A stretch of 54,200 bases of DNA, filler included, from Bipalium vagum (GCA_037834085.1; 3 parts of 3 records of this genome joined end to end with filler, not necessarily neighbours in it); one strand, 5' to 3'; shown: positions 2,900 through 35,498, numbered from the whole stretch's first letter. Notes: generated by a model not told the origin, from the sequence alone. Made by a program: numbers and translations.

Positions 2900-3668
2900 T
2901 GTAGAAAAAGGCTTTCTCATATTGTGAAGTACGAATACAATTAAAACAAATGAATGAAAAAACCGGATCAATTTTCAAAAACGGGAAGTCCAGGATAAAA
3001 ATGTCAGACCACAAACTTAATTAAAATCCCGGTAAAAATCGAACTAGTTTGGCTTGGAATTAATAATGTATTTACCGCGCAGTCCTGATCTGCCAGTATT
3101 AGATTATCATTTATTTAGATATCTGCTGAACTCTCAGTGGGCTAAAATTGATTTCTATGCATTAATGAGGGGAATAATTTGTGCAGTTTTTTATTCTTCT
3201 TATTCTCCGAATCCTTCACCAATAGATTATTATCTGTTCAACCATGTTAGTTGAAAATTAATCGGAGATATCGGGATACGAACGAACAAAATTGTATTTT
3301 TTACAACAGATTTATACATACATGAACATAAGTCATCAGCTCATGGCCTTTCAGATACGAATGGGATGCTCTGACCACTAGACGACATCTCCCGATTAAT
3401 TTTCAATTTATCTTTAAAACCAAATTGATGCCTTTCTTATCAATACAATTTTTTCCATGACCAAGATGCCATTCAAAAAGACACGTCAATTTTTTGAATC
3501 AAGAAATCCGGAGTTTTTTCAAATTGAAATCGATAAATCATTAACTTATTTTCAACTGTGCTCTAACAGTAACGGAAAATATTTTAATTAATAAATTTTA
3601 TTTACCAGTTCTTTTATTACTGATATCACTTACAACTAAAACACGACATATCATACTGAACAACTTGG
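2900..3668 (+). mobile_element. Two tandem mariner C-terminal relics; the second is interrupted by a tRNA-derived insertion
   Basis: PRSPDLPVLDYHLFRYL, then YSPNPSPIDYYLFNH...IDAFL...FFESRNPEFF...NSNGKYFN, with a TIR-like end at ~3640-3668. Confidence 0.75.
3246..3407 (-). mobile_element. tRNA-Ala-derived element, copy 1 (inverted flanks, putative TSD, ~57-nt internal insert)
   Basis: Aligns with 34011-34082 (cggagatatcgggatacgaac / ggcctttcagatacgaatgggatgctctgaccactagacgacatctccc). TTGAAAATTAATCGG(G)AGAT inverted repeat. Direct repeats at 3230-3245 and 3408-3423. Confidence 0.75.
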
Positions 3669-5534
3669 TACATGACACAATTTTGGTTGTTTATAATAAT
3701 AATAATGATAATAGACAATTTCAAGTACTGATTCATTGTTATATTATGTTATACTATTTTGTGAAATATATAAAATAAAATAGTCTTACTGACATCCTAC
3801 TCAGTTTTACTATAGATTTTCAGAAATCAATACGGATAAGATTATATTGTGCAAATATTTATTTTTAAAAATCCGTTAATAATGTCAAATCGAAAAACTG
3901 AGGTCTGTGACAAGTTTACCATTTATAATTAAATACTTACCATAATATTTTCCGCAAGTTTTGAGAGTTAATTTAAAATCGATTTTTCTCTTTAATCCAT
4001 AAAAAATACATGACAACTGACATATCAAGATGCATTAATAAGGAAGCCAATAACGACAAATAAAGTTTTTATTGTAATTTTTTCACAATGTGTGTTTATA
4101 AATTCAAAATTGATTAATTAAATTTCCTTAGTTTTATTTCATTAATTGGGGCTTTAGGGAAATTTCCATTCCAATAATAACATCGAACTAAATCAACTTT
4201 TAAATATCGATTCATATCCAAATTTAAAATATATTTCATCAGTTGTAACTTTTTTAAACAAAACCTATTTTTATGTCATTTCTAATAGTATCCAAAGATT
4301 TAAATAAAATATATTTTCATTGACAAAAATTGACAGACAATTTATTTATTTATTCGGTTTCGATACAACCGATATTTAGAAATTATTAAGAAAAATTTTA
4401 ATAAGTAAAATGTCTAAAGAAGAAGTCTTAAAATGAAATGATGCATTGCACTAATTATTTATAGGATAATATTTTTAATCTAATCAAAGATATTCTTGAA
4501 AGCGAAATGAAAGAACTTTTTCCTCCTCTACACAAAGAATTATTTTTCCAATTAATTATAATTTTAATTTAGAAATTATTTTTCACCTTTTCTTAATTGA
4601 TCTCCAAATTGACCAATTAAACAAACAAGTTAAATTTTAATTAATTCCTACAAAACTATAACTATTAACTGAACGTTCTTCATATAATTTATTTATTAAC
4701 ATCTTTCATATGACCCGATTTGGTTCACATAAAATGTTCATATAAATTTCACAGAAATGCCAAAACGTTTTCCGTCAAAAGAAACGAGTTGCATTTTCAG
4801 TGAAGAAGGACGGTGTAAACTAAGTCTTGAGTAACCAACCTATTTATCGAATGCCGCTGAATTTAGAGAATAGTTTGGCAACATGAGGTTTGGATCCTGA
4901 AATGTGAGAACATAATAATTTTTTTTAATTAATTAATTAATTTCTGATTAAAACTATCCTCAACTTTTTATTAACTTTTAAGTAACATTCCATGTTCCTA
5001 CATTAATCTATAGTAGAAATTTATGAAGTGAAGAGGCCATAGTATTGGGAATACTGAAAAACAATCATACTTGATAGGTAATAACTTCTTTCAATAGATA
5101 AAAATATACAGTGGAGAAACATAATATTTGATATATTCCCGGTCCTGATGAGCATTTATTATTAATTGATTTATAAATTAAGAAAAATCAATTAACATTA
5201 ACAATGGAAATATTCAATAAATTCAATCACCATTATGTTGTTATTTTTCTAAAAACTATTTGAGATTCACAACATTTTAATATATTTTTAATTAAAATTG
5301 TTTTACTAATAGATAATTGGTTAAAATGATCTTCAATTAATCAGAGGATACACTAAAATTCATTGATTTTCACATTCTCTATGTAAAGATTTTTTTCCTT
5401 TAATTTAATATAAATATTATCAACTTAATGGGAAAATGTTTTTGAAAAAATATTTTTAATTTATTTATTTATTCAATTTATTTTTGATAAAAATTTTATG
5501 CAATTAAAAATTTTAATTATTTTCATAATTGCAG

Positions 5535-5801
5535 CAAAGTATCCTGCAGTTAAAAGTCTGATGGGTTATGACCCGAATCTTAAATGGATCATGATGTTTT
5601 GGTTTATTTTACAACTAATAACAAGTATATTATTCCAGAACTTTTCTTGGAAAATTCTTTTGTTTTTGGCATATGCTGTTGGTGGTGTCATCAATCATAT
5701 CCTGACTCTGGGTATCCATGAAATATCTCACAATCTTGCATTTGGTCACTCTAGACCGCTGGCAAACAGATTTTTAGGAATATTTTTTAACTTGCCTCTA
5801 G
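5535..5801 (+). CDS. DEGS1: DEGS exon 2 of 5
   Basis: Acceptor ttgcag|, reads (A)KYPAVKSLMGYDP...HEISHNLAFG...NLPL(G) with His box 1 (HEISH). Donor G|GTAGG. Confidence 0.95.
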
Positions 5802-5874
5802 GTAGGAGATTTTTATTTATTTTAAAAATTAATTTTGTCTCTCTCAATGTTGAATATCTGACAAAGTCCTTTAA

Positions 5875-6075
5875 TCCCTACAGACCCCATTTGTAGAATT
5901 ATATCCATAATGTTTTATGTCTTATTCCACTGTTACTTGAAATAATTTATTCTATCACCATCTGTGTACAGATCAAAATTTAATCAATATGTTTATTTTC
6001 TTATAATGTCATTCTTACCAATAATTAGTAAAATAATATTTTTTATCAGTTATCAATAATTCAGGTCTGAAGGGG
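5875..6075. mobile_element. piggyBac-type MITE (201 bp) in DEGS intron 2
   Basis: TTAA on both sides (5871-5874, 6076-6079). Termini TCCCTACAGACC ... GGTCTGAAGGGG are inverted (10/12). Confidence 0.7.
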
Positions 6076-33119: not shown

Positions 33120-33166
33120 CTATTCGACATTAAATATAATATTGTAATTTAAGATATTAAAACTAC

Positions 33167-33265
33167 TCTTCAGCTTCAACTGATCCTCTTAAGGCGATAT
33201 AGGATTTAGGAATGTATCCTTTAACTCCATGTCCAATATGTTCTACAAACCACCAATCTAAATCT
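33167..33265 (-). CDS. Src-family kinase exon 2 (SH3 C-terminal half)
   Basis: tatag|, reads (S)DLDWWFVEHIGHGVKGYIPKSYIALRGSVEAE, then GA|GTAGTT. Not in the ORF track. Confidence 0.9.
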
Positions 33266-34010
33266 CTATAATAAAAATTGAAGTTAATTTAATAAAAAGA
33301 TTATTAAATATTATCTTTCAGAATATATTATGTTAATAATATTAACAATTATGTTAATAATAGTAATAATAGTAAAAAATTGATTTAGAATAATATATTT
33401 AATTTAAAAATAGAAAATTTCGAAAAAATGTTATTACTCATAAATGAAAATTTAACTTGTACTTAATTTAATAAATAAACATATTATTTAAGATAAACAT
33501 CGACATTTGTCATTTTCTTCACGAACATTTTGTCAATTATGAAAGAATCAATAAATTTTAAGAATTCCCAATTTATATTTATTGATAAAAATAGTACGAA
33601 TAGTGTTAGGAAAAGTATTAATAATATAAAATAATATTGAGAAAATGATAGGAAGTACTTTAAATACAATAAAGCAATCATAAAATATTTCTTTAGATAA
33701 AAATTCTTTCAATGAATTCCAATTATGGCTCAGTATTTCTCATTCATGTACTATTCAGCTGATATTTCTGACAATGCCTTTTTGAAAATGTTAAGATATT
33801 ATAATTTATTGATGTTGGATTGTAATTAGAATTTTAATGTTATTAAAACTAAATATTATTATATTAAATATTAATGTAATTTTTTAAAACAAATTGATTT
33901 ATGCAAAGTATATTTTTCTCTTTTATAAATGATCCAAAATTCATGGTTGTTTATATATATTTCAAATTTATCACTAAATAATTCAAATGACTTGTTAGGT
34001 TCAAATAAAT

Positions 34011-34082
34011 TGGAGACACCGGGATTCGAACCCGGGACCTTTCACATGCGCATGGACTGCTCTACCGCTGAGCTACGTCCCC
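34011..34082 (-). tRNA. tRNA-Ala-like gene (nominal anticodon CGC) with an aberrant anticodon arm; copy 3 of the tRNA-derived family
   Basis: GGGGACG-TA-GCTC-AGCGGTA-GAGC-A-GTCCA-TGCGCAT-GTGAA-AGGTC-CCGGG-TTCGAAT-CCCGG-TGTCTCC-A. Acceptor (G3:U70, A73), D and T arms and A/B boxes are intact; the anticodon stem pairs only 2/5 and position 33 is G. Confidence 0.8.
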
Positions 34083-35498
34083 CGTTCATTTGTCATCTAA
34101 ACTCCTTACATGACTAATTTCAATATTACACAAGCACTAAATAGTATTTATTTTTATTAAAAAAATTAAATATTAGAAATAATATTTTTCATTTTATAAA
34201 AATGACATTAATTTTTTTTTATTTTTACTTTTACATATTTCGAACTAATGACAAAAATGATAACATGAACCATTAATTTCAATATTAGTCAAACACAAAT
34301 TAATATTTTGTATTTTTTATTAGGAAAATAGTATCAATTCAAGATTCCAATTTAATGGAAAAGATTTTATTGACGAACTTGGAAACGGTGTTCTTAAACT
34401 ACGATGAAAGTGAGACACAAAATGTCAAGAAAATATTCTCTCACCAGCCAATGAAATACAGACAGCCACTGACCAATGGAAATTGCTGCCAAAATAATAG
34501 AAACAATCATGGCATTAGATTATTTGTCATAAAGAACCATTTTAGCATCATCTGTGCAGTGCTGTTTTATTATCAACATAATCATCATGATCACCATCAC
34601 CATCATCATCATCTTTACCATTATTACAACTATTAACAAGTGGCCAATAATTCAATGGATAAAATCAATACTACTATGGTGGTATGAAAAAATATCATTT
34701 CACTAAAGATATACATGAAAAATAATTATATTAGTAAACTGACGAAAATCTGATAATAATTCCACCAGTTATTCCATCGATGATACCGTTTATTGTGACA
34801 GTATATGTTCTGTCACTGATGATTGGTAAAATAAAATCAAATAACAACAGAAAAATCACAGAACTTAACCCAAAAATAAAATTGTGTAAATAATCAATTA
34901 ATTTTTTTAATAAATAATTGTTATAAAACGGGTATTGCGTCTCATTGTGATTTCAAATTAAAACATCAACTGAGAATTGGTCAATTGTTTATCATTTTAT
35001 TTTCATATAGTGAATTGTAATTGAAAGACCTTCATCTGTTGACAGAAAAACAAAATCATGTATAAAAAAGGAATGGAAAACTTTGTACTATTCAACTAAA
35101 AAACCAAACTTTATTCATTGATCTTTAATCAGTTAGCTGACAGAAATGCTGAGAGTGCAAATTGCTATCCCTGGAAACACATGTTAGAATGGCATCAACT
35201 TCCAACCAATAGTTGGATGTCTGGAATCAGTTACTTCGTCGGCTCATTTGTTACAATAAAGAACATTATGTCATTTTTATTGTTTTTTTTTACATTTTCC
35301 ATGAATAAAATAGAGAAAAATCATAATTTTTACTTAGGTAAAATTAATGGGTTTGCTAAAGAAAAAAATGTTTACTGCAAAAATATATTAGTATTTGTAA
35401 TATGAAATAGTTTAAAACTTTTAAATAAAAAATATAAAATAACATTATTATATTTTATCAATAATAGTTTTTTAAGAAAAACGAAAATGAATTCTTAC

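What the first reader, a model, noticed from the sequence alone, without database searches (positions are those of the whole stretch)
3246..34100. Dispersed family of tRNA-Ala-cored hairpin elements (3 copies): candidate new short mobile element or small-RNA system
Seen: three homologous minus-strand units at 3246-3407, ~9259-9365 and ~33993-34100. All have a related non-pairing anticodon arm (copy 3 GTCCA-TG-CGC-AT-GTGAA; copy 2 GTCCA-TG-TGC-AT-GTGAA; copy 1 TCCCA-TT-CGT-AT-CTGAA), so the defect looks inherited from a master copy rather than random decay. All have 5' and 3' flanks complementary to each other. Flanks of copies 1 and 3 look homologous (gttagttgaaaattaatcgg vs gttaggttcaaataaattgg), while copy 2 has a different distal inverted repeat. 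No poly(A) or LINE-like tail is visible. Established: classic tRNA-SINEs have a tRNA head, a body and a tail. Inference: this is a ~105-bp unit (whole tRNA plus an extended acceptor duplex) that spreads in the genome and could act as a Pol III hairpin precursor for small RNAs. I recall reports of small RNAs from tRNA flanks in planarians, so novelty needs a literature check.
Basis: partly seen in the sequence, partly recalled or inferred. Interest (0 to 1): 0.8.

Follow-up and report, generated by a model that had tools for sequence, protein, structure and literature searches.

The report
tRNA-bearing solo LTRs in a planarian
Three scattered broken copies of an alanine tRNA gene in a flatworm genome are most likely the leftover ends of a tiny parasitic retrotransposon that borrows a tRNA gene as its promoter, a kind of element described in other organisms but not, in the papers checked, in flatworms.

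Summary
The three homologous tRNA-Ala-derived units are real, and the genome is a triclad planarian. Flank complementarity is strong in copy 1 and borderline in copies 2 and 3, and only copy 3 is a whole tRNA.

With redrawn boundaries, copy 3 is 118 bp (33993-34110). It has TGTNR ends, a 6/7 terminal inverted repeat, an exact 5-bp target duplication, intact A and B boxes and a T-rich trailer (chance about 0.001). Copy 1 shares the 3' end and has a 5-bp duplication in the same register. Copy 2 starts with TG at the same position.

This layout matches solo LTRs of tRNA-promoter TRIMs (Helenus/TRIMp3, Kojima 2024), which list no flatworm. It differs from animal Helenus in having a 5-bp rather than 4-bp duplication. 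The 'non-pairing' anticodon arm is a 10-nt palindrome, possibly a dimerisation signal (inference).

No two-LTR copy with PBS and PPT lies in the window, so membership is unproven (confidence 0.6). The main rival is a Ginger/Tdd-type MITE. Repbase and Dfam could not be checked.

The parts
33993..34110 (-). Copy 3: intact 118-bp unit (putative solo LTR) with TGTNR at both ends and a 6/7 terminal inverted repeat. It lies in sense orientation in the intron between the first two matched exons of a Src-family kinase gene.
   Evidence: exons at 35498-36100 and 33166-33264 from tblastn
34111..34115 (-). Copy 3 upstream copy of the 5-bp target-site duplication
   Evidence: exact match to 33988-33992
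33988..33992 (-). Copy 3 downstream copy of the 5-bp target-site duplication
34083..34110 (-). Copy 3 28-nt leader (putative U3); its inner part pairs with the trailer
34011..34082 (-). Copy 3 tRNA-Ala(YGC)-derived core. Acceptor, D and T stems are intact, G3:U70 is kept and there is a compensatory C6-G67 pair. 60 of 72 positions are identical to planarian tRNA-Ala.
   Evidence: by-eye comparison with supplement rows
34065..34075 (-). Copy 3 Pol III A box (TRGCY...YGG)
34022..34032 (-). Copy 3 Pol III B box
34045..34054 (.). Copy 3 perfect 10-bp palindrome across the anticodon loop
   Evidence: self-duplex -15.7 kcal/mol
33993..34010 (-). Copy 3 18-nt T-rich trailer ending in ACA (leaky terminator region and putative U5)
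   Evidence: 8 of 35,815 control positions match the copy 1 trailer as well
3245..3417 (-). Copy 1: decayed 173-bp unit, 83 of 115 aligned positions identical to copy 3. The 3' end is intact and the 5' end lacks the G of TG. It lies about 2 kb upstream of the first DEGS1-like ORF.
3418..3422 (-). Copy 1 upstream copy of the 5-bp direct repeat (putative TSD)
   Evidence: chance 1035 of 53,395 at this register
3240..3244 (-). Copy 1 downstream copy of the 5-bp direct repeat
3284..3343 (-). Copy 1 AT-rich insertion in the T arm (net 57 nt, limits approximate); no other copy in the window
3251..3406 (.). Copy 1 inverted repeat, arms 3251-3273 and 3383-3406 (22 of 24); third strongest short-range inverted repeat in the window
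9262..9362 (-). Copy 2: 101-bp deleted unit. It starts with TG 28 nt before the tRNA as in copy 3, ends in TTACA and has a 5/7 terminal inverted repeat; the flanking 5-mers match 3 of 5. It lies antisense between DEGS1-like coding pieces.
   Evidence: ORFs
9284..9334 (-). Copy 2 5' two-thirds of the tRNA core, with a 4-nt templated-looking insertion; T arm and 3' acceptor strand are absent
9292..9301 (-). Copy 2 anticodon 10-mer, fully self-complementary as RNA with two G-U pairs
   Evidence: -11.2 kcal/mol
9269..9277 (-). Copy 2 9-bp direct repeat of 9340-9348: either a templated repair insertion or an alternative TSD
   Evidence: 3 of 1297 control sites as good

Best explanation
The three units are solo LTRs (one intact, two decayed) of a short non-autonomous LTR retrotransposon whose LTR carries a planarian tRNA-Ala gene as an internal RNA polymerase III promoter, that is, a Helenus-like TRIMp3. 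SHOWN: common origin from tRNA-Ala; a shared anticodon rearrangement; homology that runs from about 28 nt before to 18 nt after the tRNA and stops; TGTNR ends with an exact 5-bp duplication in copy 3; a duplication in the same register in copy 1; intact A and B boxes in copy 3. INFERRED: a parent element LTR-PBS-short internal region-PPT-LTR is transcribed by Pol III from the 5' LTR, reads through the weak T-run, and is packaged, reverse-transcribed and integrated in trans by an autonomous LTR retrotransposon whose integrase makes 5-bp duplications; LTR-LTR recombination then leaves one LTR between the duplications. The tRNA fold is kept for promoter use, not for decoding. The anticodon palindrome probably arose in one template-switch event in the master copy and may serve RNA dimerisation. 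Leader-trailer pairing may shield the RNA from RNase P and RNase Z (speculative). Copies 1 and 2 were later damaged by an insertion and a deletion with templated-looking fills.
For: Copy 3 is enclosed by TGTNR...YNACA with an exact 5-bp TSD. Such segments occur 0.89 times per shuffled window, so the chance of enclosing a given core is about 0.001; 49 of 53,900 anchors pass, including copy 3's own. Copy 1's direct repeat starts at the same +19 position, chance 1035 of 53,395. Copy 2 has TG at exactly -28 plus a CA end with a 5/7 inverted repeat, chance 598 of 53,900. Similarity between copies 1 and 3 ends at these boundaries: the trailer is matched by 8 of 35,815 controls, the next 18 nt by 7507 of 15,350. 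TGTNR is the terminal pattern of Gypsy LTRs and Ginger transposons (PMC2836005 passages). Helenus LTRs are 104-323 bp in animals, several 117-123 bp (PMC10886601 Table S1). By eye the short ones have the same layout: TGT start, short leader, whole tRNA-like sequence, T-run, short trailer ending ACA (Data S1). Solo LTRs with TSDs are common in Helenus. Copy 3 has the A-box and B-box motifs that Kojima lists. Gypsy elements are abundant in planarian genomes (PMC11410931 passages) and flatworm TRIMs with solo LTRs exist (PMC4558846 passages).
Against: No two-LTR copy, PBS or PPT is in the window, so the defining structure is unseen. Every animal Helenus row with a value lists a 4-bp TSD; here it is 5 bp, and copy 3 fails the 4-bp test. 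Copy 1 does not begin with TG and its terminal inverted repeat is only 3/7. Copy 2's flanking 5-mers match 3 of 5, and it has a competing 9-bp direct repeat. Leader homology is weak once the shared CG next to the tRNA is left out (442, 1568 and 3712 of 15,342 controls). Two other TGTNR segments with 5-bp repeats and no tRNA occur in the window, so such features also arise by chance. The boundaries were chosen after looking at the data, so the probabilities are optimistic. Copy 3 has no run of four T until 72 nt downstream. Copy 1's long inverted repeat suits a MITE at least as well. No sequence match to Helenus consensus sequences (two motifs, 0 hits).
Confidence: 0.6

Rival explanations
1. 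A tRNA-carrying MITE of a TG...CA DNA transposon (Ginger2/Tdd-like). The leader and trailer plus the acceptor stem form imperfect terminal inverted repeats recognised by a cut-and-paste transposase, and the tRNA is captured cargo.
For: Ginger ends are also TGTNR, TDD-4 and TDD-5 make 5-bp TSDs, and a 252-bp non-autonomous Ginger2 exists (PMC2836005 passages). Copy 1 has a 22/24 inverted repeat. In copy 2 the whole 3' segment is an imperfect inverted copy of its own leader. The window holds other MITE-like elements.
Against: Metazoan Ginger2 TIRs are about 50-180 bp with 4-bp TSDs, and the paper has no Schmidtea mention. Here the terminal repeat is 5-7 bp and the inner duplex is offset from it by a gap of about 9 nt. 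The least decayed copy has the weakest inverted repeat. The asymmetric layout with a T-rich trailer and intact Pol III boxes suits a transcribed LTR.
Confidence: 0.17
2. A tailless simple tRNA-Ala SINE or pre-tRNA retropseudogene family, copied from Pol III transcripts (leader and trailer included) by a LINE or Penelope reverse transcriptase.
For: Whole-tRNA core with intact boxes. Direct repeats can be read as 5, 6 and 9 bp, that is, variable. Copy 2 can be read as a 3'-truncated fragment between 9-bp repeats (3 of 1297). tRNA-derived SINEs are abundant in schistosomes (PMC2770079 passages). Leader-trailer pairing is an ordinary pre-tRNA feature (recalled; the paper was not held).
Against: No tail. 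The unit starts 25-28 nt upstream of the tRNA, beyond usual Pol III starts (recalled). The 3' end is identical in copies 1 and 3, and the TGTNR ends with a terminal inverted repeat are not expected from target-primed reverse transcription.
Confidence: 0.13
3. Ordinary tRNA-Ala pseudogenes spread by DNA-level duplication, with hairpins accumulated by template switching; the ends and duplications are coincidence.
For: Planarian genomes hold thousands of tRNA-like loci (4115 and 4143 raw predictions in S. mediterranea, PMC7962491). Only three copies were seen, and the statistics are post hoc.
Against: Homology stops sharply at the same points and flanks to 400 bp are unrelated. Three separate boundary signals each have chance 0.001-0.02.
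Confidence: 0.06
4. One reading: a host small-RNA system in which Pol III makes a hairpin precursor that is diced into small RNAs from the flanks.
For: Copy 3 is a plausible Pol III template and has an 8-bp extension of the acceptor stem. Planarian pseudo-tRNAs do yield abundant small RNAs (PMC7962491 passage).
Against: The duplex is short and significant only in copy 1, which has lost its promoter boxes. Two of three copies are broken. No supporting paper was found.
Confidence: 0.04

Closest known systems
Helenus (tRNA-containing TRIMs, TRIMp3; Kojima 2024, PMC10886601)
   Same: Short TG...CA unit of 118 bp with a whole tRNA-like sequence, conserved A and B boxes, a non-functional anticodon arm, a T-rich trailer, TSDs and occurrence as a solo unit.
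   Different: No flatworm is listed. The TSD is 5 bp against 4 bp in all animal Helenus with a value. The host tRNA-Ala is still recognisable at 60 of 72. The two-LTR form was not seen. No motif match to published consensus sequences, so probably an independent origin.
Ajax and Cassandra (5S rRNA TRIMp3)
   Same: Pol III gene inside an LTR. Ajax is an animal TRIMp3 with 5-bp TSDs.
   Different: The promoter comes from 5S rRNA, not tRNA.
ta-TRIM of taeniid cestodes (PMC4558846)
   Same: Flatworm TRIM with many TSD-flanked solo LTRs.
   Different: TSD mostly 4 bp (52 of 57). No Pol III mention, and no tRNA-derived LTR in the passages seen.
Ginger2/Tdd DNA transposons (PMC2836005)
   Same: TGTNR ends; 5-bp TSD in TDD-4 and TDD-5.
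   Different: Long TIRs of about 50-300 bp, 4-bp TSD in animals, and no tRNA cargo in the passages seen.
tRNA-derived SINEs (Sm-alpha in schistosomes, PMC2770079; simple Ala-derived SINEs such as rodent ID, recalled)
   Same: Dispersed tRNA-derived repeat with an internal Pol III promoter.
   Different: Those start at the tRNA and end in a tail. This unit has a 28-nt leader, no tail and integrase-type ends.

Membership tests
Helenus / TRIMp3 | tRNA-derived sequence inside the unit with A box (TRGCY, YGG) and B box (GGTTC) | tested here: met
   Met in copy 3; the boxes are decayed or missing in copies 1 and 2
Helenus / TRIMp3 | LTR-type ends TG...CA with a short terminal inverted repeat | tested here: met
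   Copy 3 both ends, 6/7; copy 2 TG and CA, 5/7; copy 1 3' end only
Helenus / TRIMp3 | Fixed TSD of 4-6 bp | tested here: met
   Exact 5 bp in 2 of 3 copies, 3/5 in the third
Helenus, animal type | 4-bp TSD | tested here: not met
   Copy 3 passes the 5-bp test and fails the 4-bp test; animal rows list 4
Helenus / TRIMp3 | Two LTRs enclosing a PBS and a PPT in at least some copies | not testable with these tools
   None beside the three copies; no eukaryotic genome search was available
Helenus / TRIMp3 | LTR length within the known range | tested here: met
   118 bp against 104-323 bp in the animal rows
Helenus / TRIMp3 | Pol III transcription and mobilisation by an autonomous LTR partner | not testable with these tools
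   Needs expression data and the genome
Ginger2/Tdd-type MITE | TGTNR ends | tested here: met
Ginger2/Tdd-type MITE | Long symmetric TIRs (about 45 bp or more) | tested here: not met
   Terminal repeat 5-7 bp; inner duplex offset and borderline in copy 3
Tc1/mariner MITE | TA target duplication and mariner TIRs | tested here: not met
   No TA flanks. Similarity to a mariner TIR of the window only for copy 3 arms (best 34 of 9759, among 20 comparisons)
tRNA SINE (SINE2) | tRNA head at the 5' end, plus a body or tail (poly(A) or simple repeat) | tested here: not met
   28-nt leader, 18-nt trailer, no tail
tRNA SINE (SINE2) | Variable-length TSD | tested here: inconclusive
   5 and 5 bp under the TG...CA reading; 5, 6 and 9 bp under the alternative reading
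Functional tRNA-Ala | 5-bp anticodon stem with a 7-nt loop | tested here: not met
Described planarian repeat (Repbase, Dfam, SINEBase) | Match to a deposited consensus | not testable with these tools
The core motif has 0 hits in the S. mediterranea tRNA table and no relevant hit in the truncated D. japonica table

The most novel reading that the evidence does not exclude
This is an independently born flatworm TRIMp3, young enough to show how such elements arise. A host tRNA-Ala gene with its own pairing leader and trailer became a whole LTR, mobilised by a 5-bp-TSD integrase, and one template-switch event turned its anticodon loop into a 10-nt palindrome that acts as a kissing-loop dimerisation and packaging signal. 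In silico dimer gain is -19.9 kcal/mol against -10.9 +/- 1.3 for shuffled arms (0 of 200 as strong). By eye, several but not all published Helenus LTRs also have palindromic anticodon loops (not counted), and that paper's main text has no 'palindrom' or 'dimer'. The anticodon loop could thus be the general cis-signal by which TRIMp3 RNAs enter their partner's particles, which the paper calls unknown. Copy 3 keeps G3:U70, so its RNA might also be alanylated without decoding (recalled identity rule).
Probability: 0.12. Interest if true: 0.75.

Novelty: new variant of a known kind. Interest (0 to 1): 0.45.

Why it matters
If confirmed, it extends tRNA-promoter TRIMs to a seventh animal phylum and to a second integrase type in animals (5-bp TSD). 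It would offer one explanation for part of the thousands of spurious tRNA predictions in planarian genomes and would warn that some planarian tRNA-fragment reads may come from such LTRs. The recognisable host tRNA makes the birth of a TRIMp3 traceable. The anticodon palindrome gives a directly testable lead on how these non-coding elements are packaged by their autonomous partners. It is not a new category of system.

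Tried and rejected
Further copies in the window: none (BLAST and nhmmer; motif scans; the candidate spots at 24480-24960 and 13860-14100 were read and are unrelated). 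Longer shared flanks: none to 400 bp. Mariner MITE: considered because copy 3's arms resemble a mariner TIR in the window, rejected for lack of TA duplications and no match for copy 1. Bacterial or archaeal origin: 0 exact matches of the core motif in genome contigs. Known RNA family other than tRNA: none. PBS or PPT next to the copies: none; the TGG after copy 1 is the duplication itself. Copy 2's outer inverted repeat as a pre-existing target hairpin: the empty-site fold does not pair the two arms, so it was not adopted, but the 9-bp repeat is kept as a rival reading. The MAFFT alignment of the three copies misplaces copy 1's 3' part and was not used for counts; no covariance model was built from three sequences. 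The strict A-box pattern missed copy 3 through a spacing error, corrected. The window includes N gaps, which were skipped in most null sets. Species not determined: best protein hits were a Dendrocoelum lacteum kinase at 78% and cestode or unnamed GPCRs. Literature searches with no relevant hit. Unchecked: Repbase, Dfam, SINEBase, the genome assembly, small-RNA reads, viral and metagenome contigs, files 13-15 and the cut end of file 4 of the PMC7722302 supplements, and parts of the Helenus supplement other than 1, 6, 7 and 11 (searched by term only).

Full report
Setting. The window is AT-rich (most 1-kb bins 20-33% GC) and has intron-split eukaryotic genes: a DEGS1-like desaturase, a C2H2 zinc finger, a Src-family kinase, a GPCR and mariner relics. 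The kinase exon's only hit at E 1e-20 or better among 94 candidates is a Dendrocoelum lacteum kinase at 78%. The genome is therefore most likely a triclad planarian; the species was not determined.

The observation. Three homologous minus-strand units exist (nhmmer E 1.7e-5 and 3.3e-4) and no fourth. Only copy 3 is a complete tRNA. By eye it matches D. japonica tRNA-Ala-TGC (PMC7722302 supplement row) and S. mediterranea tRNA-Ala-CGC_5 (PMC7962491 Table S1 row) at 60 of 72 positions each. Copy 1 carries a net 57-nt insertion in the T arm and is 83 of 115 identical to copy 3. Copy 2 stops after the variable loop. Copies 1 and 2 share G3 to A and an extra C in the D loop, so they probably form a subfamily.

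The anticodon arm. Six of the twelve differences from the D. japonica tRNA fall in this arm. Four of them are exactly those that make tRNA positions 30-34 the reverse complement of 35-39 (by-eye comparison), which gives a perfect 10-bp palindrome at 34045-34054. One template-switch event in a master copy explains them (inference). Copy 2 keeps a fully self-complementary 10-mer through two G-U pairs; copy 1 has lost it. Elsewhere copy 3 keeps all stems, G3:U70, a compensatory C6-G67 pair and both promoter boxes. This suggests that promoter and fold were under constraint while decoding was not.

The boundaries. Similarity between copies 1 and 3 continues 18 nt past the discriminator base (8 of 35,815 controls) and then stops (7507 of 15,350). 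Upstream it covers 25-28 nt more weakly (45 of 15,340 with the adjacent CG, 442 of 15,342 without). In both copies a direct repeat begins at +19. Taking 5 bp, copy 3 becomes 33993-34110 (118 bp) with TGTNR at both ends and a 6/7 terminal inverted repeat. Segments with these properties occur 0.89 times per shuffled window (100 shuffles), about 0.001 per given core; the real window has three, two without tRNA. Copy 1's 5-bp repeat has chance 1035 of 53,395, but its 5' end lacks the G of TG. Copy 2 starts with TG at the same -28 position and ends in TTACA with a 5/7 inverted repeat (chance 598 of 53,900); its flanking 5-mers match only 3 of 5. A 9-bp direct repeat offers another reading of copy 2 (3 of 1297). 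These tests were designed after inspecting the data and are optimistic, but they point the same way in three copies.

How it most likely works. TG...CA ends with a short fixed duplication are the footprint of a retroviral-type integrase. PMC2836005 (passages seen) gives TGTNR for both Gypsy LTRs and Ginger transposons. A 118-bp unit filled mostly by a Pol III promoter, with no PBS or PPT beside it, fits a solo LTR. I infer a parent element LTR-PBS-internal-PPT-LTR that is transcribed by Pol III from the 5' LTR, reads through a weak terminator (copy 3 has no T4 run for 72 nt), is copied and integrated in trans, and collapses by LTR-LTR recombination. None of these steps is shown here. Leader-trailer pairing (8 + 4 bp in copy 3) may be inherited from the pre-tRNA and may hinder RNase P and RNase Z (recalled; the paper was not held). 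The palindrome could act as a kissing-loop dimer signal, by analogy with retroviral dimer initiation sites (recalled). In silico the copy 3 core gains -19.9 kcal/mol on dimerising against -10.9 +/- 1.3 for 200 shuffled arms, which any such palindrome would give, so it is not evidence of function.

Comparison with known systems. Kojima 2024 (PMC10886601) describes Helenus, TRIMs with tRNA-derived LTRs in fungi, one plant and six animal phyla. I read main-text parts 1-5 of 6, supplement parts 1, 6, 7 and 11 of 11 and a term search. Flatworm terms have 0 hits in the main text and no flatworm is among the animal rows. The short bivalve, brachiopod and Selaginella LTRs (104-132 bp) show the same layout by eye. 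The element works like a Helenus solo LTR, but I do not file it as a member. The two-LTR structure cannot be tested in this window, and the 4-bp TSD of animal Helenus is not met; 5 bp is found in fungal and plant Helenus and in Ajax. Flatworm TRIMs are known from cestodes with mostly 4-bp TSDs (PMC4558846, passages). A planarian genome comparison mentions LTR/Gypsy expansion and has no whole-word SINE, tRNA or MITE (PMC11410931, passages). Schistosomes have tRNA-derived SINEs (PMC2770079, passages). The Ginger/Tdd MITE reading remains the main rival, because of copy 1's 22/24 inverted repeat and the 5-bp TSD of TDD elements, but long symmetric TIRs are absent.

Searches for planarian tRNA-flank small RNAs, planarian SINEs and tRNA-carrying MITEs gave nothing relevant (listings only). 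PMC7962491 (abstract, passages, first part of the text, Table S1 rows) reports 4115 and 4143 raw tRNA predictions in S. mediterranea and has no hit for this element's core motif. PMC7722302 (passages and a truncated tRNAscan table) has none relevant. PMC4695841 (four passages) cites only schistosome tRNA fragments. The library omits most subscription journals, and Repbase and Dfam were not available, so the family may already be deposited.

Verdict. A real dispersed family, most likely solo LTRs of a tRNA-promoter TRIM (0.6), against a Ginger/Tdd-type MITE (0.17), a tailless SINE (0.13), coincidental pseudogenes (0.06) and a small-RNA system (0.04). Three copies in 54 kb suggest a high copy number, but one selected window cannot give an estimate. 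Novelty: new variant of a known kind. Interest 0.45.

Noticed in passing
window 12284-12609: TA-flanked mariner-type MITE of about 326 bp with 36-bp inverted ends (89%).
   Followed up: partly
window 43732-44625: Mariner relic with 33-bp TIRs and a weak Mos1-type HTH match. Its TIR weakly resembles copy 3's arms.
   Followed up: partly
window 48272-49542: Broken mariner transposase (Transposase_1 and HTH_48 matches) with a mariner-like end near 48272.
   Followed up: partly
window 806-879: 27-bp AT-rich hairpin (93%) with a weak MIR7504 hit far below the gathering score; probably a fold-back element or chance.
   Followed up: no
window 16145-16333 and 45426-45626: Two 71%-identical copies of a repeat, near a weak helix-turn-helix match; possibly Tc1-like. 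A second pair lies at 1132-1282 and 44429-44579.
   Followed up: no
window 9174-9260: A mariner-like end, the same as the start of the 12284 MITE for about 12 bp, lies about 90 bp from copy 2, followed by a GC-richer segment with an 8-bp inverted repeat.
   Followed up: no
window 34115-34159 and 34274-34322: AT-rich local duplication (77%, E 1.8e-5) just upstream of copy 3.
   Followed up: partly
window 15915-16014 and 36957-37056: Assembly gaps written as 44 N, a 12-bp TTAA linker and 44 N: an assembly artefact.
   Followed up: yes
window 5429-10707, 25674-26837, 28738-36106, 50886-52052: Host genes: DEGS1-like desaturase (+), C2H2 zinc finger with a poly-Q tract (+), Src-family kinase (-) and a rhodopsin-type GPCR in one long ORF (+).
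   Followed up: partly
PMC10886601 Data S1: Several published Helenus LTRs have palindromes of 4-12 nt in the anticodon loop and some show leader-trailer complementarity; others have none. Seen by eye, not counted.
   Followed up: partly
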